15,856 nucleotides of DNA from a virus. Of this stretch, positions 1 to 15,856 are shown piece after piece; position 1 is the stretch's first letter, and the number at the start of each line of letters is the position of its first letter. Location: UHGV virus genome UHGV-0214057; one strand, 5' to 3'. The notes beneath the pieces were generated by a model that did not search any database, was not told where the DNA came from, and worked only from the letters and a program-made list of their open reading frames with translations. The position numbers were made by a program, and so were the translations under genes.

Positions 1-139
1 AGTAATACTCCGGGTTGCTGGTGGTGCTGATAACTGCGCCTTCTCCATCCGACGGCTTCACCACCACAGGTGTGGTGACATCACCTTCCGCCGCAATGGC
101 CTGCATCAGGGTATAAGGCCAGATGGTGGAAAGAACCAT
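1..139 (-). CDS. Partial ORF (N-terminus in window, continues past left edge) with a DUF1737-like motif; function unknown
   Basis: Minus-strand ATG at 139..137; my translation reads MVLSTIWPYTLMQAIAAEGDVTTPVVVKPSDGEGAVISTTSNPEYY with no stop to the window edge. The PYTLMQA-A-EGD motif matches the N-domain of the adjacent + strand esterase (PYTLMQAVAIEGD, nt 265-303). Not in the ORF track because it is truncated. Confidence 0.3.
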   Translation of the reverse strand, partial: MVLSTIWPYTLMQAIAAEGDVTTPVVVKPSDGEGAVISTTSNPEYY

Positions 140-1991
140 GGCATTTAAACACTATGATGTTGTCAGGGCGGCGTCGCCGTCAGACCTTGCGGAAAAGCTG
201 ACACACAAACTGAAAGAGGGCTGGCAGCCATATGGCGGACCGGTTGCCATTACGCCGTACACACTGATGCAGGCGGTGGCTATTGAAGGAGATCCACAGG
301 TCGGCCCTTCATCTGAGCCGGACTGGTTCTACGTGGTTGTGCTTGCCGGACAGTCCAACGGCATGGCCTACGGTGAAGGGCTTCCGTTACCGGATTCTTA
401 CGATGCTCCGGATCCGCGCATTAAACAGCTGGCGCGCCGCAGCACGGTAACTCCGGGTGGAGAGAGTTGTACGTATAACGACATCATCCCGGCTGACCAC
501 TGTCTGCATGATGTGCAGGATATGAGTACGCTGAATCATCCGAAGGCAGACCTGAGCAAAGGGCAGTACGGCTGTGTCGGCCAGGGCTTACATATTGCCA
601 AAAAACTGCTCCCGTATATCCCGAATAACGCGGGGATCCTGCTGGTACCATGCTGTCGTGGTGGTTCGGCATTCACCCAGGGCGCGGAGGGGACATTCAG
701 TGCGGACGCGGGGGCCAGCCAGGATTCGGCACGCTGGGGTGTGGGTAAACCGCTATATCAGGACCTGATTGCGCGCACTAAAGCTGCATTACAGAAGAAC
801 CCGAAAAATGTGTTGCTGGCGGTGTGCTGGATGCAGGGCGAATTTGACATGAGCGCTGCCACCTACGCACAGCAACCGGACCTGTTCACGGCCATGCTGA
901 AGCAGTTCCGTACTGACCTTTCCGGATTTAACGCGCAGTGCCATGGCGGCAGTGCTGCAGTTGTACCGTGGATTTGTGGTGACACGACGTATTACTGGAA
1001 AAATACATACGCTACCCAGTACGACACCGTGTACGGAGGGTATAAAAACAGGGAGAGTGAGGGCGTTTATTTTGTGCCCTTCATGACAGACGGTAACGGC
1101 GTCAATACCGCCACTAACGCACCGGCAGAAGATCCGGATATTCCGGCATCAGGATATTACGGTGCGGCATCGAGAACGAATGGAAACCAGGTATCATCAA
1201 ACCGCCCGACACATTTCAGTTCATGGGCGCGCAGGAGCATTATTCCGGATCGTATGGCAACCGCTATTCTGAACGCAGCCGGGCGCACCTCAGCCTTCAT
1301 CAGTGGTAAGGCACCGGAAATCAAACCCTCGCCCGGCGTCGACACGCCATCGGGGCCGTCTGAAGATGCATCCGTACGCACAATCTCCCTGTTGCCGACA
1401 GCCGGAGATGCTGCTGCGCAGGGCTGGAGCATTAAGAATGGCGGAATTCAGTTGTCAGATGGTGTATTTAAGATCACCAAGCAGAGCAATAAAGCCTGGT
1501 CCCTGACGCGCCCGGTGGATGACGCAGTCTCCCTGCTGACACGGGGTGGCAGACTGAGCTGTAAGTTTCGACTGTCAGGCGCACTGACCAACAACCAGTT
1601 CGGTCTGGGAATTTATCTGTATACCGATGTAGCGTTACCTGACGTCGTGGCGATGACCGGGACTGGTAACCCGTTCCTGATGTCGTTCTTCACCCAGACC
1701 ACAGACGGCAAACTGAATCTGATGCATCACAAGAAAGCCGGAAACACAAAGTTGGGCGAGTTCGGGAATTACAGTAACGACTGGCAGACGCTGGAGCTGG
1801 TGTTCACCGCCGGCAGTGCCACGGTTACTCCGAAACTGAATGGAGTGGCTGGCCCGGCATTCCAGGTCATAAAAGACAGTCTGACAGTGGGACTAAATGC
1901 ACTGACGCTGACGGATATTACCAAAAATGCAACGTATGGCGTTGAGATAGAAAGTCTGGTGCTGGAGATAAATGCACCGGTATCATCATAA
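123..1991 (+). CDS. nanS-p: Prophage sialate O-acetylesterase, NanS-p-like (DUF1737-like N-domain, SGNH/SASA esterase domain, C-terminal beta-rich domain)
   Basis: 622-aa ORF. The GQSNG block (VVVLAGQSNGMAYGEG) is typical of the SGNH/SASA esterase family; the N-terminus MAFKHYDVV...PYTLMQA resembles the DUF1737 domain; position immediately upstream of a 933W-type holin matches Stx-phage architecture (established knowledge). Start may be ATG 138 rather than 123. Confidence 0.75.
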   Translation: MVERTMAFKHYDVVRAASPSDLAEKLTHKLKEGWQPYGGPVAITPYTLMQAVAIEGDPQVGPSSEPDWFYVVVLAGQSNGMAYGEGLPLPDSYDAPDPRIKQLARRSTVTPGGESCTYNDIIPADHCLHDVQDMSTLNHPKADLSKGQYGCVGQGLHIAKKLLPYIPNNAGILLVPCCRGGSAFTQGAEGTFSADAGASQDSARWGVGKPLYQDLIARTKAALQKNPKNVLLAVCWMQGEFDMSAATYAQQPDLFTAMLKQFRTDLSGFNAQCHGGSAAVVPWICGDTTYYWKNTYATQYDTVYGGYKNRESEGVYFVPFMTDGNGVNTATNAPAEDPDIPASGYYGAASRTNGNQVSSNRPTHFSSWARRSIIPDRMATAILNAAGRTSAFISGKAPEIKPSPGVDTPSGPSEDASVRTISLLPTAGDAAAQGWSIKNGGIQLSDGVFKITKQSNKAWSLTRPVDDAVSLLTRGGRLSCKFRLSGALTNNQFGLGIYLYTDVALPDVVAMTGTGNPFLMSFFTQTTDGKLNLMHHKKAGNTKLGEFGNYSNDWQTLELVFTAGSATVTPKLNGVAGPAFQVIKDSLTVGLNALTLTDITKNATYGVEIESLVLEINAPVSS

Positions 1992-2358: not shown

Positions 2359-3252
2359 GTGATGAATAAAAAATATGAACTGGTTGTTAAGGGGATAAAT
2401 AATTACGGGGGTAAGGTTACTGTTACTGTGAAGCCGGAAGGTGACGGGCAAGCGTCGCTGTTGTTGCCAGATGTGGCGATTAGTCTTGACCGTACTGAAG
2501 GTGCCACGCTGGAGTTTTACGAAGCTGAGGCGAAAAAGCAGGCGAAGCAGTTTTTCATGGATGTTGCTGCTGGGTTATGTGAATGGAACGAACCGTTGCC
2601 GGAAAAGCGCCCCGTAATTTTAGAGGCGCAGGATGTGTTGATAACCTACAAAGGAAAGCTACCGGGAAGAATTACTTGTTCTCTGAAGATGCCGCCGTCA
2701 ACACTGCGGTCAGAAAAAGATGATGTTGAATCACGTATTGAAAAACTGGAGAGCTACGTCGTTGAGCTGAATAAGAAATGGTCGATATTGGTGCCTTCTG
2801 GCGATGAAAAGCAGTTTGCTGCGTTTGACGATTATTGTCGGAAAGTGATGAGCAGAAATCTCGCAGAGTGTTTCAGTATTCATAATGATAATTTCAGTGA
2901 GCTGGAATGGGAGTGTAACCGGCCATCCTTTGTTGTATCCGGTGATGCTGGGAAAATAACCATCTCAGAAAATGGGAAAGTAACACCTCCATCGCACCAG
3001 CACAGTGAGGGGCTCATTGAATTTGCCATTGATTACCTGAAGAACAATAAAAAGCAGGGGCTGATGAAGCGCGTTGGCCGTTGCATGGGATATCTTCAGG
3101 TAGCCGCTGAGATTGAAGCGCTGGCCAGTGGTGCTGATAAGGATGCAATTGTGCGGGAGGCTCTTCTTCGTGATTTTAATACTCCACCCTTTAAAAAAGT
3201 GCCGGCTTACTGGCTTCATCCGGGGCTGACTTATCTTAAAGTGCGTATTTAG
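2359..3252 (+). CDS. Hypothetical protein, 297 aa, no recognisable domain; moron between holin and endolysin
   Basis: Uninterrupted ORF beginning GTG 2359 / ATG 2362, 2-5 nt after the holin stop (TAA 2355-2357), with GGAGAG upstream: looks translationally coupled. Visibly more AT-rich than flanking genes. No TM segment or signal peptide evident. Confidence 0.65.
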   Translation: MMNKKYELVVKGINNYGGKVTVTVKPEGDGQASLLLPDVAISLDRTEGATLEFYEAEAKKQAKQFFMDVAAGLCEWNEPLPEKRPVILEAQDVLITYKGKLPGRITCSLKMPPSTLRSEKDDVESRIEKLESYVVELNKKWSILVPSGDEKQFAAFDDYCRKVMSRNLAECFSIHNDNFSELEWECNRPSFVVSGDAGKITISENGKVTPPSHQHSEGLIEFAIDYLKNNKKQGLMKRVGRCMGYLQVAAEIEALASGADKDAIVREALLRDFNTPPFKKVPAYWLHPGLTYLKVRI

Positions 3253-4307: not shown

Positions 4308-4777
4308 ACATAAACCGAATGCTTTCCGCGTTTATCGTTATTCTGCTGGTGGCCTGTGGTGCGCTGTGGATGGCAACAGACCATTACCGTGATAACGCGA
4401 TTACCTACAAAGCGCAGCGCGATAACAAAGCCAGTGAACTGAAGCTGGCGAACGCAACCATTACTGATATGCAGGTGCGCCAGCGCGATGTTGCTGCGCT
4501 CGATGCAAAATACTCGAGGGAATTAGCCGATGCGAGAGCTGAAAATGAAACTCTTCGCGCTGACGTTGCCGCTGGTCGTAAGCGCCTGCGGATCAACGCC
4601 ACCTGTCCAGGCTCCGTGCGTGAAGCCCCCACCACCTCCGGCGTGGATAATGCAACCGGCCCCCAACTGGCAGACACCGTTACACGGGATTATTTCACCC
4701 TCAGAGAGCGGCTGATGACGATGCAGAAGCAACTGGAAGGGGCACAGGACTATATCCGCACTCAGTGCCTGAAATAA
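4304..4777 (+). CDS. Rz: i-spanin Rz (inner-membrane spanin subunit)
   Basis: N-terminal TM segment, then [15 protein letters not shown]...[11 protein letters not shown]...[19 protein letters not shown], strongly similar to lambda Rz. Start is GTG 4304 or ATG 4319. Confidence 0.8.
4530..4715 (+). CDS. Rz1: o-spanin Rz1 (outer-membrane lipoprotein) embedded in the +1 frame of Rz
   Basis: [17 protein letters not shown] lipobox (cleavage before Cys), followed by the proline-rich [30 protein letters not shown], which matches lambda Rz1. Lies entirely inside Rz, as in lambda. Start is ATG 4530 or 4545. Confidence 0.75.
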
Positions 4778-5127
4778 GTTTTGTTGATGCGCCGTATCGT
4801 CGCTGTATTCCCTCATTAACAGAGACCGCAGCCCGACAGGGAGACTCCTCTGCGCGAGTGTGCGGGGATAATCAAAAACGATACACACCGGGGTTTACCG
4901 CGTTAACGGAGCGCGGCGTTGTCCCCTCATAGTCGCCTGTCCGGTGCGATGGTGGAAGAAGCCGGATGTTTATCACTATTAATTGATGACACAGAAATGG
5001 ATTCATTGAATTTCAGCACGTTTTTGTATTCGTGTTATTGAACATCTGTTTATTTTACTTTTAACATATTGATAATAAAAAGAGCTGTAAATCTTTAGAT
5101 GAGTCGATTTTGTCCGGGGAAGTTCAA

Positions 5128-5268
5128 ATGGATTTTATGCTGACGGTTTCTGGTGTGGTTATCCTGTCCATTGCTTATACTGCAGATAAATATGGCTGCC
5201 ATTTGTTATCACGTATTGGCGCTTATTGTTCGTTGATGCTGATTTTCTCGTCGCTTTTTTTTGAGTAA
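5128..5268 (+). CDS. Possible small hydrophobic peptide (46 aa) in an AT-rich island
   Basis: ATG 5128 preceded by GGGGA (8-nt spacing). Product MDFMLTVSGVVILSIAYTADKYGCHLLSRIGAYCSLMLIFSSLFFE. Below the 60-aa cut-off of the ORF track; coding status uncertain. Confidence 0.2.
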   Translation: MDFMLTVSGVVILSIAYTADKYGCHLLSRIGAYCSLMLIFSSLFFE

Positions 5269-5400
5269 GTTATATTAATTATAACAAATAATTTTCTGTG
5301 TTATTTTTTCAGGCTATCCCGTCAGAGGGGAAGCCTGTACTGCCGGGGAGCGAATGGAAAACTGATGTGTCCGGTAACTGCGTGTTCTGTGAACACCATG

Positions 5401-5586
5401 TTACTTAATTATGTAATTCATACCCGAACTCTCTGTTGACAGCCTTCTTCTGCAGGCTTCAATAACCCACGCTGAAAAGTTTCCTGAACCTTTCAGATCA
5501 AGAGCGATGTTAATTTGTTCAATCATCTGGTTTGGAAATCGGATGTTGCGGGTTGTTGTTCTGCGGGTTCTGTTCTTTGATGACAT
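5401..5586 (-). CDS. Small ribbon-helix-helix-like DNA-binding protein (DUF3950 / YlcI-like), 61 aa
   Basis: MSSKNRTRRTTTRNIRFPNQMIEQINIALDLKGSGNFSAWVIEACRRRL: basic N-tail, a short beta-strand motif (RNIRF) and two helices. Resembles the small ylcI-type genes found just upstream of the terminase small subunit in E. coli lambdoid prophages (from memory). GGGGA ribosome-binding site upstream on the minus strand. Confidence 0.5.
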   Translation of the reverse strand: MSSKNRTRRTTTRNIRFPNQMIEQINIALDLKGSGNFSAWVIEACRRRLSTESSGMNYIIK

Positions 5587-5639
5587 AATGTTTCCCCATA
5601 TTCAGTGTTGCTGATTTGTATTATCTGAAGTTGCTTTTA

Positions 5640-5975
5640 CGTTAATTTGACGCAGATCAATTAATACGATACCTGCGTCATAATTGATTATTTCTCGTGG
5701 TTTGATGGCGTACACACATGTTGTGATAAACCTTATATAGATGATAATCATTATCATTTCGTGGGTCCTTTCCGGCGATCCGACCGGTTACGGGGCGGCG
5801 ACCTCGCGGGTTTTCGCTATTTATGAAAATTTTCCGGGGAAAATCATGTCGGTACTTCTCGAACATAACTATTTGTTTTTTCTAATATCGAATCCGTAAA
5901 AGGTCCGACATGAAAACGCCTAAAAAAGTCATTTTCGGGCACTTTCATGTCGGCCCCTGTATTTATTGTGAGACT
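5640..5975 (+). other. cos: cos site: cosQ-proximal conserved sequence, cosN (12-nt cohesive end GGGCGGCGACCT at 5793-5804) and cosB
   Basis: 5762-5840 (GGGTCCTTTCCGGCGATCCGACCGGTTACGGGGCGGCGACCTCGCGGGTTTTCGCTATTTATGAAAATTTTCCGG) is near-identical to the joined right and left ends of phage lambda as I recall them. Nu1 starts 189 nt after the first cosN base (191 in lambda). Confidence 0.8.
5845..5953 (+). repeat. cosB R-element candidates: three copies of the octamer CATGTCGG (5845-5852 direct, 5905-5912 inverted, 5946-5953 direct)
   Basis: Direct / inverted / direct arrangement with an A/T-rich spacer between the first and second copy mirrors the lambda R3-I1-R2-R1 layout, but the repeat sequence is not lambda's. 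Confidence 0.5.
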
Positions 5976-5980
5976 GTTTC

Positions 5981-6500
5981 ATGAAGGTTAATAAAAAGAA
6001 ACTTGCCGAAATTTTCAACGTGGATCCGCGAACGATTGAACGCTGGCAGTCTCAGGGACTCCCTTGCGTCTCCGGAGGTGGTAAGGGCGTTGAATCTGTA
6101 TTTGATACCGCCATGGCAATTCAGTGGTATGCGCAGAGGGAAGCTGATATCGAAAATGAAAAACTCCGTAAAGAGGTTGAGGATTACAGGGCTGCCAGTG
6201 AGGCAGATCTCCAGCCTGGGACTATTGAGTACGAACGCCATCGACTTACGCGTGCGCAGGCCGACGCACAGGAGCTGAAGAATGCCAGAGACTCCGCAGA
6301 GGTGGTGGAAACCGCATTCTGTACTTTCGTGCTGTCACGGATCGCAGGTGAAATTGCCAGTATTCTTGACGGGATCCCTCTCTCGGTACAGCGGCGTTTT
6401 CCGGAACTGGAAAACCGACATGTTGATTTCCTGAAACGGGATATCATCAAAGCCATGAACAAAGCAGCCGCGCTGGATGAACTGATACCGGGGTTGCTGA

Positions 6501-6526
<26 letters not shown>
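5981..6526 (+). CDS. nu1: Terminase small subunit
   Basis: 181 aa. The C-terminal roughly 110 residues ([58 protein letters not shown]...) are essentially identical to lambda gpNu1 as recalled. The N-terminal DNA-binding domain ([28 protein letters not shown]...) is divergent and, I believe, phage-21-like. Confidence 0.9.
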
Positions 6527-10207
<3,681 letters not shown>

Positions 10208-12992: not shown

Positions 12993-13379
12993 ATGACGAA
13001 AGATGAACTGATTGCCCGTCTTCAGGAGCTGGGTGAGCAACTGAACCGTGATGTCAGCCTGACGGGAACGAAAGAAGAACTGGCGCTCCGTGTGGCAGAG
13101 CTGGAAGAGGAGCTTGATGACACTGCCGATCAGGATACCCCTATCAGCCCGGAAAATGCGCTGACCGGACATGAAAATGAGGTTGTATCAGCGCAGCCGG
13201 ATACCGTGACTGATACGGCTGATCTGGTCACGGTTGTGGCACTGGTGACGCTGCATACTGATGCACTTCACGCCACGCGGGATGACACTGTGGCATTTGT
13301 GCTGCCGGGAACGGCGTTCCGTGTCTCTGCCGGTGTGGCAGCCGAAATGACAGAACGCGGCCTGGCCAGAATGCAATAA
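12993..13379 (+). CDS. FI: DNA-packaging protein FI
   Basis: Homology to lambda gpFI starts at ATG 12993 (MTKDELIARL...), preceded by GGAGGAG. The track start at 12954 is an upstream extension. Confidence 0.85.
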   Translation: MTKDELIARLQELGEQLNRDVSLTGTKEELALRVAELEEELDDTADQDTPISPENALTGHENEVVSAQPDTVTDTADLVTVVALVTLHTDALHATRDDTVAFVLPGTAFRVSAGVAAEMTERGLARMQ

Positions 13380-13390
13380 CGGGAGGCGCT

Positions 13391-13744
13391 GTGGCTGATT
13401 TCGATAACCTGTTCGATGCTGCCATTGCCCGCGCCGATGAAACGATACGCGGGTACATGGGAACGTCAGCCACCATGACATCCGGTGAGCAGTCCGGCGC
13501 AGTAATACGTGGTGTTTTTGATGACCCTGAAAATATCAGCTATGCCGGACAGGGCGTGCGCGTTGAAGGCTCCAGCCCGTCCCTGTTTGTCCGGACTGAT
13601 GATGTGCGGCAACTGCGGCGTGGAGACACGCTGACCATCGGTGAGGAAAACTTCTGGATAGACCGGGTTTCGCCGGATGATGGTGGAAGCTGTCATCTCT
13701 GGCTCAACCGTGGGCAACCACCCGCTGTTAACCGGCGACGATAA
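13391..13744 (+). CDS. FII: Head-tail connector protein FII
   Basis: 117 aa, MADFDNLFDAAIARADETIRGYMGTSAT..., matching lambda gpFII. Confidence 0.9.
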   Translation: MADFDNLFDAAIARADETIRGYMGTSATMTSGEQSGAVIRGVFDDPENISYAGQGVRVEGSSPSLFVRTDDVRQLRRGDTLTIGEENFWIDRVSPDDGGSCHLWLNRGQPPAVNRRR

Positions 13745-13759
13745 ACGCAGGGTGAAATT

Positions 13760-14335
13760 ATGGCGATAAAAGGGCTTGATCAGGCGATTGATAATCTGAG
13801 CCGGGTTCGTAAAAACGCCATTCCGGCGGCTTCAGCAATGACGATTAACCGCGTGGCCACAACGGCGATTAATCAGTCTTCGTCACAGGTTGCCCGGGAA
13901 ACCAGGGTGAGACGGAAACTGGTAAAGGAACGGTCCAGACTGAAACGGGCGACGGTCAGAAATCCGAATGCCAGAATTATCGTTAACCGCGGTGATCTCC
14001 CTGTGATTAAGCTGGGGATCAGAATGCTGGGACGTCGTCCGAACAGCATACTCAAAGCCGGTCAGCATCGTTATCAGCGGGCATTTATCCAGCGATTAAA
14101 TAATGGGCGCTGGCATGTTATGCAACGTCTTCCCCAGGCCAGATATGAGGAGGGCAATGACGACAAGGGAAGGAAAAAGCGTAATCGCCTTCCCATTCAG
14201 GTGGTGAAAATCCCGATGGCGGCCCCACTGAAACAGGCATTTGATGAGAATGTTGACCGTATCCGGCGTGAACGCCTGCCTAAAGAACTGGCATACGCGC
14301 TGAAACAACAACTGAGGATTGCGATAAAACGATGA
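13760..14335 (+). CDS. Z: Tail completion protein Z
   Basis: 191 aa; N- and C-terminal thirds match lambda gpZ (MAIKG...VARETRVRRKLVKER...RRERLPKEL...), central part divergent. Confidence 0.85.
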   Translation: MAIKGLDQAIDNLSRVRKNAIPAASAMTINRVATTAINQSSSQVARETRVRRKLVKERSRLKRATVRNPNARIIVNRGDLPVIKLGIRMLGRRPNSILKAGQHRYQRAFIQRLNNGRWHVMQRLPQARYEEGNDDKGRKKRNRLPIQVVKIPMAAPLKQAFDENVDRIRRERLPKELAYALKQQLRIAIKR

Positions 14336-14727
14336 AACACACTGACATTCGTGCCGCAGTGCTGGATGCACTCGAGCAGCATGAACACGGGGCGACGCTG
14401 TTTGATGGTCGCCCCGTTGTTTTTGACGAAGAGGATTTTCCTGCGATCGCGGTTTATCTGACGGATGCAGAGTATACCGGTGAAGAGCTGGATGCAGATA
14501 CCTGGCGGGCCACGCTGCATATTGAGGTGTTTTTACCGGCACAGGTACCGGATTCAGAGCTTGATCAGTGGATGGAAAGCCGGATTTACCCGGCGATGAC
14601 TGCGATCCCGGCACTGGCAGGACTGATTACCACGATGGTTACGCAGGGCTATGAGTATCGTCGTGATGACGATATGGCGTTATGGAGCTCTGCGGATCTG
14701 ACTTATTCCATTACATACGAGATGTGA
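14332..14727 (+). CDS. U: Tail terminator protein U
   Basis: 131 aa, [44 protein letters not shown]..., matching lambda gpU; ATGA overlap with Z. Confidence 0.9.
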
Positions 14728-14734
14728 GGACGAT

Positions 14735-15481
14735 ATGGCAACACCAAATCCCCTTGAGCCGGTAAAAGGTGCCGGTACCACTCTGTGGGTTTACAACGGC
14801 AAGGGTGATGCTTATGCAAACCCGTTGTCAGACGATGACTGGCAGCGACTGGCTAAGGTGAAGGATCTGACGCCGGGCGAGATGACGGCAGAATCCTACG
14901 ATGATAACTACCTGGATGATGAAGACGCGGACTGGACCGCGACCGGGCAGGGACAGAAATCTGCAGGTGATACCAGTTTTACGCTGGCCTGGAAACCGGG
15001 AGAGGAAGGCCAGAAAGGGCTTATAGGCTGGTTTGAAAGCGGCGATGTCCGGGCCTATAAAATCCGTTTTCCGAATGGCACGGTGGATGTGTTTCGTGGC
15101 TGGGTCAGCAGTATCGGTAAGGCCGTGACGGGGAAAGAAGTGATCACCCGCACGGTGAAAGTCACTAACGTGGGTAAACCTTCTGTAGCGGAAGAACGCA
15201 GCAAAATTACGCCGGTCACTGCGATTAAGGTAACGCCGACAGGTACGGTTGAAAAAGGGAAAACAACCACCCTGACCGTTACTGTGGAACCGGAAAATGC
15301 AACGGATAAGACATTCAGGGCGATTTCCGCCGATCCATCAAAAGCCACCATTAGCGTGAAAGATATGACGATTACTGTGACGGGGGTTAAGGATGGAAAA
15401 GTCAGCATCCCTGTGATTTCCGGTAATGGTCAGTTTGCTGCGGTGGCTGAAATTACCGTTAATAATGTGCCGGGTGGCTAA
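14735..15481 (+). CDS. V: Major tail tube protein V with C-terminal Ig-like domain
   Basis: 248 aa, strong match to lambda gpV ([12 protein letters not shown]...[23 protein letters not shown]...) with the C-terminal Big_2-like region. Confidence 0.9.
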
Positions 15482-15499
15482 AGAGCTGAGAGATAAGCG

Positions 15500-15856
15500 A
15501 TGTTCCTGAAAACAGAACAATTTGAATATAACGGTGTATCCGTCACGCTTTCTGAGCTGTCTGCGCTGCAGCGTATTGAGCATCTTGCCCTCCTGAAACG
15601 GCGGGCAGAAGAGGCTGAAGCCAGCGGCAACCTGCAGGTGAGTGTGGAAGATCTTGTCAGAACCGGCGCGTTTCTGGTGGCGATGTCCCTGTGGCATAAC
15701 CATCCACAGAAAACGCAGTCACCGTCAATGAATGAGGCCGTGATGAAGCGCCGTCGAAGACTTTCCCGCAGAAAAATCATCATCAGTCAGCGTGTTATTT
15801 TTCGCCACTTCAGTAATATCAGTATCCGGACGAACAGCTTCGATCATCCCGGACAG
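15500..15856 (+). CDS. G: Tail assembly chaperone G: the first 81 codons are lambda-G-like; beyond about 15743 the frame stays open but loses homology (gene probably disrupted)
   Basis: My translation from ATG 15500: MFLKTEQFEYNGVSVTLSELSALQRIEHLALLKRRAEEAEASGNLQVSVEDLVRTGAFLVAMSLWHNHPQKTQSPSMNEAV matches lambda gpG residues 1-81; the continuation MKRRRRLSRRKIII... does not. Absent from the ORF track because there is no stop in the window. Confidence 0.55.
   Translation, partial: MFLKTEQFEYNGVSVTLSELSALQRIEHLALLKRRAEEAEASGNLQVSVEDLVRTGAFLVAMSLWHNHPQKTQSPSMNEAVMKRRRRLSRRKIIISQRVIFRHFSNISIRTNSFDHPGQ
15725..15856 (-). CDS. C-terminal fragment of a G-like tail assembly chaperone on the minus strand, including the G-T frameshift slippery heptamer
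   Basis: Reverse-complement translation from the window edge reads LSGMIEAVRPDTDITEVAKNNTLTDDDFSAGKSSTALHHGLIH*. The LSGM and SAGK-ST blocks align with the lambda gpG C-terminus (...RLSGMYEFVVNNAPEQTEDAGPAEPVSAGKCSTVS). Minus-strand GGGAAAG (complement of 15761-15767) is the conserved slippery site. Confidence 0.4.
   Translation of the reverse strand: MSGMIEAVRPDTDITEVAKNNTLTDDDFSAGKSSTALHHGLIH

What the first reader, a model, noticed from the sequence alone, without database searches (positions are those of the whole stretch)
5793..6200. Terminase specificity swap: lambda cosN and terminase C-domain with a non-lambda cosB and Nu1 DNA-binding domain
cosQ, cosN and the first 45 nt after cosN are lambda-like, but cosB has three copies of CATGTCGG arranged direct, inverted, direct in place of the lambda R3/R2/R1 sequences. 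Correspondingly the first roughly 60 residues of Nu1 (the winged-helix DNA-binding domain) differ from lambda and look phage-21-like, while the rest of Nu1 and all of gpA are lambda-like. This is a natural counterpart of the lambda/21 hybrid terminases made in the laboratory and shows where mosaic exchange occurred.
Basis: partly seen in the sequence, partly recalled or inferred. Interest (0 to 1): 0.45.

Follow-up and report, generated by a model that had tools for sequence, protein, structure and literature searches.

The report
Phage-21-type cosB in lambda-type terminase
This is the DNA-packaging start site of a lambda-like E. coli prophage whose recognition sites and matching small-terminase DNA-binding domain are of the phage-21 type, while the rest of the packaging and head genes are lambda-type; it is a real mosaic but a common and already understood one.

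Summary
cosQ (5763-5769) and cosN (5793-5804) are present. Bases +1 to +45 are 100% lambda. CATGTCGG occurs direct, inverted, direct at 5845, 5905 and 5946, at the positions annotated as R3, R2 and R1 in phage 21.

From 5838 to about 6193 the window is 86.5% identical to phage 21 and 57.7% to lambda. From 6202 to about 13690 it is 95-100% lambda. The small terminase (Nu1/TerS) therefore has a 21-family part over residues 1 to about 73. Its recognition helix is identical to that of 21, including the specificity residues E20 and S24. Residues 75-181 are lambda-type, and gpA is 98% lambda.

The donor was a relative of 21, not 21 itself. The right junction lies at codons 72-74, not about 60. The left junction cannot be placed precisely, because +1 to +45 is conserved in all lambdoid phages compared.

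The arrangement is not rare. The same right junction (at least 95% identity) is in 550 records of complete E. coli genomes, the exact protein is on at least 1000 contigs, and an isolated phage (IdasGreatGrand) carries the segment from cosQ onward at 99% identity. Laboratory lambda-21 hy51 is the functional precedent. Interest is low.

The parts
5763..5769 (+). cosQ heptamer GGGTCCT (site for termination of packaging)
   Evidence: Identical in window, lambda, 21 and DLP12. It lies 23 nt before cosN, as in the annotated cosQ of OL657228.
5793..5804 (+). cosN: the 12-nt cohesive-end sequence GGGCGGCGACCT, nicked by gpA
   Evidence: Identical to the first 12 nt of lambda and phage 21 virion DNA.
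5793..5837 (+). Conserved cosN-to-I2 block (+1 to +45), lambda-type. It contains the stretch matching the I2 IHF site annotated in M81255 (+30 to +44)
   Evidence: 100% identical to lambda and DLP12, 91% to 21, 97.8% to PhiR5_1. All 4 lambda-versus-21 sites are lambda-type.
5836..5838 (.). Apparent left junction: last lambda-type site at +44, first 21-type site at +46. The true crossover could lie anywhere in or left of the conserved block
   Evidence: PhiR5_1 shows that these sites vary within the 21 family.
5842..5857 (+). cosB R3 (AATCATGTCGGTACTT; core CATGTCGG at 5845-5852), the proposed critical TerS binding site. Base pairs 56 and 59 are G, as in R3 of 21
   Evidence: Same position as R3 (50-65) of OL657228, with one difference from 21 (A instead of G at +54). 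The roles of bp 56 and 59 are from PMC4669245.
5866..5878 (-). cosB I1, IHF-site-like sequence AAACAAATAGTTA
   Evidence: One mismatch to WATCAANNNNTTR. Same position as I1 (74-86) in OL657228. Consensus matches across the whole window are not above chance (7 found, 10 expected), so the assignment rests on position and homology.
5900..5915 (-). cosB R2, inverted (core CATGTCGG on the minus strand at 5905-5912)
   Evidence: Corresponds to R2 (107-122) of 21, shifted by a 1-nt insertion in the window.
5943..5959 (+). cosB R1 (core CATGTCGG at 5946-5953)
   Evidence: Corresponds to R1 (150-166) of 21.
5981..6526 (+). Nu1/TerS gene, 181 aa, chimeric. Codons 1 to about 73 are 21-family (winged helix-turn-helix DNA-binding domain and start of the linker). 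Codons 75-181 are lambda-type (oligomerisation and gpA-binding parts)
   Evidence: Pfam Phage_Nu1 E = 6.9e-91. Alignments. PDB matches 6hn7 (lambda TerS 1-98) and 7lwr (a chain identical to 21 gp1 residues 1-54).
6194..6201 (+). Right junction inside Nu1 (codons 72-74, GCCAGTGA)
   Evidence: 21-family-like through 6199 when compared with PhiR5_1, and lambda-like from 6202.
6501..8426 (+). gpA/TerL gene, 641 aa, GTG start, lambda-type
   Evidence: 631/641 identical to lambda gpA and 67% to 21 gp2.

Best explanation
The region is the cos packaging site and terminase genes of a lambda-like E. coli prophage. A block of about 360 bp, comprising cosB (R3-I1-R2-R1) and the first 73 or so codons of the small terminase, is of the phage-21 family. 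It sits in an otherwise lambda-type context: the conserved cosQ and a lambda-type cosN/+1 to +45 block, the rest of Nu1, gpA, and head genes W to FII.

Inferred mechanism, taken from the lambda and 21 systems. Dimers of the 21-type winged helix-turn-helix domain bind the CATGTCGG-containing R sites, with R3 and R2 brought together by an IHF bend at I1. The lambda-type C-terminus of the same protein holds lambda-type gpA, which nicks cosN and packages the DNA into lambda-type proheads. Packaging specificity should therefore be 21-type and not lambda-type.

Inferred origin. Homologous recombination between a phage with lambda-type head genes and a relative of phage 21. One crossover fell in or left of the conserved cosN/I2 block. 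The other fell in the conserved Nu1 linker (IENEKLR...DLQPG).

What is shown here: the sequence pattern, the junctions, the prevalence, and intact reading frames for Nu1 and gpA. What is inferred: DNA binding, 21-type specificity, and the recombination history.
For: Segment identities are 100% lambda for 5793-5837; 57.7% lambda and 86.5% 21 for 5838-6185; and 95.8% lambda and 57.7% 21 for 6196-6526. Lambda/21 informative-site counts are 4/0, 19/115 and 128/5. Head genes are 95-100% lambda up to about 13690.

The R sites and I1 lie at the positions annotated in 21. The recognition helix is identical to that of 21, with E20 and S24, and R3 has G at bp 56 and 59; these are the contacts reported to separate lambda and 21 specificity.

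Evidence that the arrangement works: the lambda-21 hy51 laboratory hybrid is viable, and the isolated phage IdasGreatGrand carries the same cos-Nu1 region at 99% identity and the head genes at about 83-100% per 100-nt window.

Evidence that recombination near cos is plausible: in lambda x DLP12 crosses, 10 of 19 junctions fell immediately next to cos, and recombinants that had replaced nu1 were active (PMC3945230).
Against: No binding or packaging experiment was done on this sequence. The window differs from 21 at R3 bp 54 (A instead of G) and at three wing residues (G32, G34, V37, against K, S, I in 21), which could shift affinity or specificity.

The direction and number of exchange events cannot be read from the sequences. 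The 21-like block is itself heterogeneous: about 92% identical to 21 in 5981-6100, but by eye closer to PhiR5_1 than to 21 in roughly 6140-6199.

The prophage as a whole may or may not be inducible. Only the Nu1 and gpA reading frames were checked here.
Confidence: 0.88

Rival explanations
1. Third specificity. The cosB/DNA-binding-domain block belongs to the 21 family by descent but recognises a different site, so these phages neither package 21 DNA nor are packaged by 21 terminase.
For: The block is only 86.5% identical to 21. All three R cores are CATGTCGG, whereas R3 of 21 is CGTGTCGG. The wing reads SGGGKGVES against SKGSKGIES in 21. A further relative, PhiR5_1, has diverged R cores (CATGTCAG, GATGTCG, CATGTCGT) and a changed helix (RTIDRWQTQGL), so the family does drift.
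Against: The recognition helix (residues 17-27) is identical to that of 21, including E20 and S24. R3 bp 56 and 59 are the 21-type G. In 21 itself, R2 and R1 already carry CATGTCGG, so the 21 protein must accept that core.
Confidence: 0.08
2. No exchange. The block diverged in place from a lambda-type ancestor through co-evolution of cosB and the DNA-binding domain, and only resembles 21 by convergence.
For: TerS and cosB must co-vary, and lambda and 21 are thought to share a common ancestor (PMC4669245).
Against: Identity to lambda drops from 100% to about 52-58% within 2 nt at 5836-5838 and returns to about 96% within about 10 nt at 6194-6202. The block matches 21 at 115 of 134 informative sites, including synonymous and non-coding positions. 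This is a mosaic signature, not gradual divergence.
Confidence: 0.02
3. Inert relic. The chimera is a dead recombination product in a defective prophage and does not function in packaging.
For: Many E. coli lambdoid prophages are defective. The DLP12 cos-nohD region is such a remnant.
Against: The Nu1 (181 aa) and gpA (641 aa) reading frames are intact, and ORFs corresponding to W, B, C, D, E, FI, FII, Z, U and V are present. The same cos-Nu1 sequence occurs in an isolated phage. It is conserved at 95% identity or more in hundreds of genomes.
Confidence: 0.05

Closest known systems
Phage 21 cos and gp1 (TerS-21); records OL657228, M81255, X02501
   Same: Same cosB layout R3-I1-R2(inverted)-R1 at the same distances from cosN. 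Same R core (C[A/G]TGTCGG). Identical recognition helix. The DNA-binding domain (residues 1-70) is 87% identical.
   Different: In 21 the whole of gp1 (182 aa) and gp2 (642 aa) are 21-type. Here everything beyond codon 73 or so is lambda-type (gpA 98% lambda, 67% 21). R3 has A instead of G at bp 54. Three wing residues differ. +1 to +45 is lambda-type at the 4 sites that differ.
Laboratory hybrid lambda-21 hy51 (chimeric TerS; Feiss laboratory)
   Same: cosB of 21 type and a small subunit whose N-terminal part is 21-type and whose C-terminal part is from Nu1, working with lambda gpA; viable, with 21 packaging specificity (PMC4669245, PMC9026076).
   Different: hy51 is described as carrying a left-end segment of about 600 bp from 21 and the 5' half of gene 1. 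The natural 21-type block here starts at +46 and ends at +409 (codon 73 or so), and +1 to +45 is lambda-type. The exact hy51 junction was not available to me.
Phage lambda cos and Nu1, and the E. coli K-12 DLP12 cos-nohD region
   Same: Same cosQ, cosN and +1 to +45. Nu1 residues 75-181, gpA and the head genes are nearly identical.
   Different: In lambda and DLP12 the sequence at the R3, R2 and R1 positions is CGTTTCC-like rather than CATGTCGG, and the recognition helix is RTIQNWQEQGM. The window is 52-62% identical to them across 5838-6185.
Escherichia phage IdasGreatGrand (PP925829) and E. coli prophages such as that in strain SF-088
   Same: The same chimeric cos-Nu1 region at 99-100% identity. 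IdasGreatGrand also carries gpA and the head genes at about 83-100% identity per 100-nt window.
   Different: In IdasGreatGrand the sequence upstream of cosQ is unrelated to the window. SF-088 is annotated with a different gene set upstream. No complete E. coli genome matches the whole 15.9-kb window; the best hits are 98.2% identity over 88% of it and 95.2% over 94%.

Membership tests
Lambda-like cos site with complex cosB (cosQ-cosN-R3-I1-R2-R1) | 12-nt cohesive-end sequence at cosN and the cosQ heptamer about 23 nt upstream | tested here: met
   GGGCGGCGACCT at 5793-5804 and GGGTCCT at 5763-5769; identical to lambda and 21.
Lambda-like cos site with complex cosB (cosQ-cosN-R3-I1-R2-R1) | Three R repeats, with R2 inverted relative to R3 and R1, between cosN and the TerS start codon | tested here: met
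   CATGTCGG at 5845(+), 5905(-) and 5946(+). Extended repeats of 14-30 nt were also found.
Lambda-like cos site with complex cosB (cosQ-cosN-R3-I1-R2-R1) | IHF site I1 between R3 and R2 | tested here: inconclusive
   A one-mismatch consensus match at 5866-5878, at the homologous position (+74 to +86). Consensus matches are not enriched over chance in the window, and binding was not tested.
Phage 21 packaging specificity | TerS recognition-helix residues 20 and 24 of 21 type (E20, S24, against Q20, E24 in lambda) | tested here: met
   The helix [11 protein letters not shown] is identical to that of 21 gp1. The roles of residues 20 and 24 are from PMC4669245.
Phage 21 packaging specificity | R3 bp 56 and bp 59 of 21 type (G and G, against T and C in lambda) | tested here: met
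   Window +56 is G and +59 is G. Their roles are from PMC4669245.
Phage 21 packaging specificity | DNA is packaged by 21-specific terminase and not by lambda-specific terminase | not testable with these tools
   Needs a helper-packaging or in vitro cos-cleavage assay.
Phage_Nu1 small terminase family (Pfam PF07471) | Full-length match above the Pfam gathering score | tested here: met
   E = 6.9e-91, 302.6 bits against a cut-off of 30; profile positions 1-164 of 164 matched.
Chimeric TerS of the lambda-21 hy51 type | 21-type DNA-binding N-terminus joined to a lambda-type TerL-binding C-terminus, paired with lambda-type TerL | tested here: met
   Residues 1-70 are 87% 21 and 60% lambda. Residues 77-181 are 98% lambda and 49% 21. 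gpA is 98% lambda.
Chimeric TerS of the lambda-21 hy51 type | Same crossover position as the laboratory hybrid | not tested
   The hy51 sequence was not retrieved. The papers describe a 21 segment of about 600 bp and the 5' half of gene 1, which suggests a later junction than codon 73 or so.

The most novel reading that the evidence does not exclude
The cosB plus TerS DNA-binding-domain block behaves as a recurrently exchanged specificity cassette among enterobacterial lambdoid prophages. Its junctions are channelled into a few conserved stretches (cosN/I2, [23 protein letters not shown]). It may be maintained at intermediate frequency because a different packaging specificity limits cross-packaging, or piracy by co-resident prophages and PICIs.

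Recurrent exchange has some support. The same DNA-binding domain is joined to at least three C-terminal types, and other DNA-binding domains are joined to lambda-type C-termini at a different junction, near residue 102. The chimeric type and the authentic 21 type are about equally common (550 and 584 records). The selective reason is untested.
Probability: 0.3. Interest if true: 0.35.

Novelty: already known. Interest (0 to 1): 0.12.

Why it matters
It matters little as a discovery. Lambda and 21 packaging specificities, their R sites and recognition-helix contacts, and the viability of a chimeric TerS are established. This exact sequence is already in hundreds of E. coli genomes and in one isolated phage.

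Its modest value is as a clean natural example. The specificity-determining part of a cos-type terminase system can move as a unit of about 360 bp. The result also gives a practical annotation rule: for lambda-like prophages, predict packaging specificity from cosB and TerS residues 1 to about 70, not from overall terminase similarity.

Tried and rejected
- **DLP12 cos-nohD (E. coli K-12) as a donor or closer relative.** It is lambda-type throughout (95-100% to lambda across cosB and Nu1), so it is not the source. The roughly 85% matches to nohD come from the lambda-type half of the query.
- **Other sequenced phages with 21-type cosB (Lambda_4C10, ev017, PhiR57_1).** Their annotated TerS and TerL genes are 549 and 1929 nt, the same lengths as in phage 21, so they were taken to be fully 21-type and not chimeras. 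Their TerS C-terminal parts and TerL were not compared by sequence. In the phage collection only IdasGreatGrand matched across the chimeric query (93% coverage at 99.2%).
- **PhiR5_1 as donor.** By eye it is closer than 21 only in about 6140-6199, and it is far more distant across cosB (58%), so it is not the donor either.
- **Promoter and terminator scan of 4700-6600.** Nothing above chance.
- **tRNA scan.** None found.
- **Literature search for an explicit description of this natural chimera.** None found in the searchable library, and the phage name IdasGreatGrand gave no paper. Sippy et al. 2015 (Virology), the paper most likely to cover it, is not in the library.
- **Fourth CATGTCGG (6415-6422, minus strand) as an accessory R site.** It lies in the lambda-type part and is present in lambda and DLP12 too, so it did not arrive with the swap and is most simply chance.
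- **Structure prediction.** Not run. Solved structures of the lambda and 21 DNA-binding domains already match at E = 1e-23 to 1e-42.

Full report
**What is in the sequence**

The window is the late region of a lambda-like E. coli prophage. Upstream of the finding lie a NanS-p-like esterase (123-1991), a phage-21-type holin, a DUF1327 protein, a lysozyme, an Rz spanin and a YlcI-like gene.

cosQ (GGGTCCT) is at 5763-5769. The 12-nt cohesive-end sequence GGGCGGCGACCT is at 5793-5804. Nu1/TerS is 5981-6526 (181 aa; Pfam Phage_Nu1, E = 6.9e-91). gpA/TerL is 6501-8426 (641 aa, GTG start). ORFs corresponding to W, B, C/Nu3, D, E, FI, FII, Z, U and V follow.

**Check of the observation**

CATGTCGG occurs at 5845(+), 5905(-) and 5946(+). 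The whole window has four copies against 0.68 expected, and only 1 of 200 shuffles reached four.

Measured from cosN, these are +53, +113 and +154. In phage 21 the corresponding motifs are at +53 (CGTGTCGG), +112 and +153 (both CATGTCGG). They fall inside the features annotated as R3 (50-65), R2 (107-122, opposite orientation) and R1 (150-166) in OL657228. The repeats extend beyond the 8-mer, with arms of 14 to 30 nt.

A one-mismatch IHF-consensus match (5866-5878, minus strand) lies at +74 to +86, the annotated I1 position of 21. Consensus matches are not enriched in the window overall, so this assignment rests on homology.

**The mosaic pattern**

A four-way alignment and segment identities give the following.

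| Window segment | Identity to lambda | Identity to phage 21 |
|---|---|---|
| 5793-5837 | 100% | 91% |
| 5838-6185 | 57.7% | 86.5% |
| 6196-6526 | 95.8% | 57.7% |

At sites where lambda and 21 differ, the window matches lambda/21 as follows.

| Window segment | Lambda-type sites | 21-type sites |
|---|---|---|
| 5793-5837 | 4 | 0 |
| 5838-6193 | 19 | 115 |
| 6202-6526 | 128 | 5 |

Fisher p is 7e-48 for the middle segment against the right one.

Lambda-likeness continues at 95-100% through gpA and the head genes to about 13690. After that, the tail genes fall to about 75% identity with both phages. The stretch upstream of cosN (about 5440-5792) is also lambda/DLP12-like.

The apparent left junction is between +44 and +46 (5836-5838). 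However, +1 to +45 is nearly invariant among all these phages, and another member of the 21 family (PhiR5_1) has lambda-type bases at three of the four diagnostic sites. The true crossover may therefore lie anywhere in or left of this block.

The right junction is better defined. Compared with PhiR5_1, 21-family sequence runs through 6199, and lambda sequence starts at 6202. This places the junction at codons 72-74.

**Proteins**

TerS residues 1-70 are 87% identical to 21 gp1 and 60% to lambda Nu1. Residues 77-181 are 98% lambda and 49% 21.

The recognition helix ([11 protein letters not shown]) is identical to that of 21, including E20 and S24. R3 has G at bp 56 and bp 59. These residues and base pairs are the ones reported to underlie lambda-versus-21 discrimination, with each phage packaging its own DNA more than 1000-fold better than the other's (PMC4669245).

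The wing (SGGGKGVES) differs from 21 (SKGSKGIES) at three positions, and R3 differs at bp 54.

Solved structures exist for lambda TerS 1-98 (6hn7), lambda Nu1 1-68 (1j9i), and a 54-residue chain identical to 21 gp1 residues 1-54 (7lwr).

gpA is 631/641 identical to lambda and 67% to 21 gp2. Most of its differences cluster at residues 8-21.

**How it most likely works**

Established knowledge of lambda terminase (PMC9026076) supplies the mechanism:
- IHF bends the DNA at I1, bringing R3 and R2 together.
- The C-terminal part of TerS binds TerL.
- TerL nicks cosN and translocates the DNA.

Here the DNA-recognition half is 21-type. The TerL-binding half, TerL itself and the head genes are lambda-type. 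This is the design of the viable laboratory hybrid lambda-21 hy51. I infer 21-type packaging specificity. This was not tested.

Three things support function. The Nu1 and gpA reading frames are intact. The isolated phage IdasGreatGrand carries the same cos-Nu1 region at 99% identity. The segment is conserved across hundreds of genomes.

**Origin**

The sharp junctions exclude divergence in place. Homologous recombination in conserved stretches is the simplest account.

In lambda x DLP12 crosses, 10 of 19 junctions fell immediately next to cos, and recombinants that had replaced nu1 were active (PMC3945230).

The donor was a relative of 21 rather than 21 itself. Identity to 21 is 86.5% overall, about 92% in 5981-6100, and the block looks closer to PhiR5_1 than to 21 in about 6140-6199.

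**How common it is**

- A 571-nt query spanning both junctions is covered at 80% or more in 1191 of 5426 complete E. coli genomes.
- A 201-nt query centred on the right junction matches at 95% identity or more in 550 records.
- The homologous stretch of authentic phage 21 matches at 95% or more in 584 records. The chimeric and fully 21-type forms are therefore about equally frequent.
- Lambda-type nohD-like copies are several-fold more numerous than either (about 3,700 records matched at 80-90% identity).
- The exact 181-aa protein is recorded on at least 1000 contigs, the limit of the counter.
- Two genomes (SF-088 and S4) match the 571 nt at 100%.
- No complete genome matches the whole 15.9-kb window. 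The best hits are 98.2% identity over 88% of it and 95.2% over 94%.

**Other natural chimeras**

Among homologues found in the large protein database, the window-type DNA-binding domain is also joined to at least two non-lambda C-terminal types (P0125, P0134). Different DNA-binding domains are joined to lambda-type C-termini at a junction near residue 102 (P0018). TerS is therefore recurrently mosaic, and this window is one common outcome.

**Comparison and novelty**

The locus works like the phage 21 cosB/gp1 recognition system joined to lambda terminase. It meets the sequence-level criteria for a complex lambda-like cos, for 21-type specificity determinants and for the Nu1 family. Functional specificity could not be tested.

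The concept, the determinants, the laboratory precedent and the sequence itself are already in the literature and databases. I found no paper that explicitly describes this natural chimera in the searchable library, but that is a gap in description, not in understanding.

**Verdict**

The feature is ordinary and of low interest.

Noticed in passing
window 6415-6428 (minus strand): A fourth CATGTCGG (6415-6422) lies inside the lambda-type 3' part of Nu1, about +623 from cosN and inverted. It overlaps a one-mismatch IHF-consensus match (AATCAACATGTCG). The same bases are present in lambda and DLP12, so it did not arrive with the swap. In this chimera it nonetheless creates an extra R-like site, loosely reminiscent of the rR2 site inside gene 1 of phage N15.
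   Followed up: partly
window ~13690-15856: There is a second mosaic boundary at the FII/Z junction. Head genes are 95-100% identical to lambda up to about 13690. Z, U and V are then only about 60-85% identical to lambda, 21 and IdasGreatGrand alike.
   Followed up: partly
window 6520-6565 (gpA residues 8-21): A small divergent patch at the Nu1/A overlap and the gpA N-terminus accounts for 6 of the 10 differences from lambda gpA. This 100-nt window is 86% identical to lambda, against 98-100% on either side. IdasGreatGrand shares the patch.
   Followed up: no
window 6068-6095 (TerS residues 30-38): The wing of the DNA-binding domain reads SGGGKGVES. It is intermediate between 21 (SKGSKGIES) and lambda (RGGGKGNEV) and matches PhiR5_1 at GGGKGVE. 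Three lambda-type bases (6074, 6075, 6080) sit inside the otherwise 21-type block.
   Followed up: partly
window 2359-3252: A 297-aa protein sits between the holin and the lysozyme. It has DUF1327 only at residues 2-101. The counterpart in strain SF-088 is a 114-aa YdfR-family protein. The full length matches phrog_1085, of unknown function.
   Followed up: partly
window 123-1991: A 622-aa protein with DUF1737, SASA (sialate O-acetylesterase) and DUF6645 domains lies just upstream of the lysis genes. From my own knowledge, this domain combination is that of the NanS-p-type esterases found in Stx-phage-like late regions.
   Followed up: no
window 13093-13292 (FI gene): Identity to lambda dips locally to 84-90% inside the otherwise 93-100% head region.
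   Followed up: no
proteins P0018, P0125, P0134 (found): Other natural TerS chimeras exist. The window-type DNA-binding domain is joined to two non-lambda C-terminal types. A different DNA-binding domain (helix RTITGWQSQGL) is joined to a lambda-type C-terminus with the junction near residue 102.
   Followed up: partly
L004 (IdasGreatGrand) upstream of its cosQ, compared with window 5193-5762: The isolated phage shares the window sequence from cosQ rightwards, but is unrelated immediately to the left of cosQ. That is a further mosaic junction right at cosQ.
   Followed up: no
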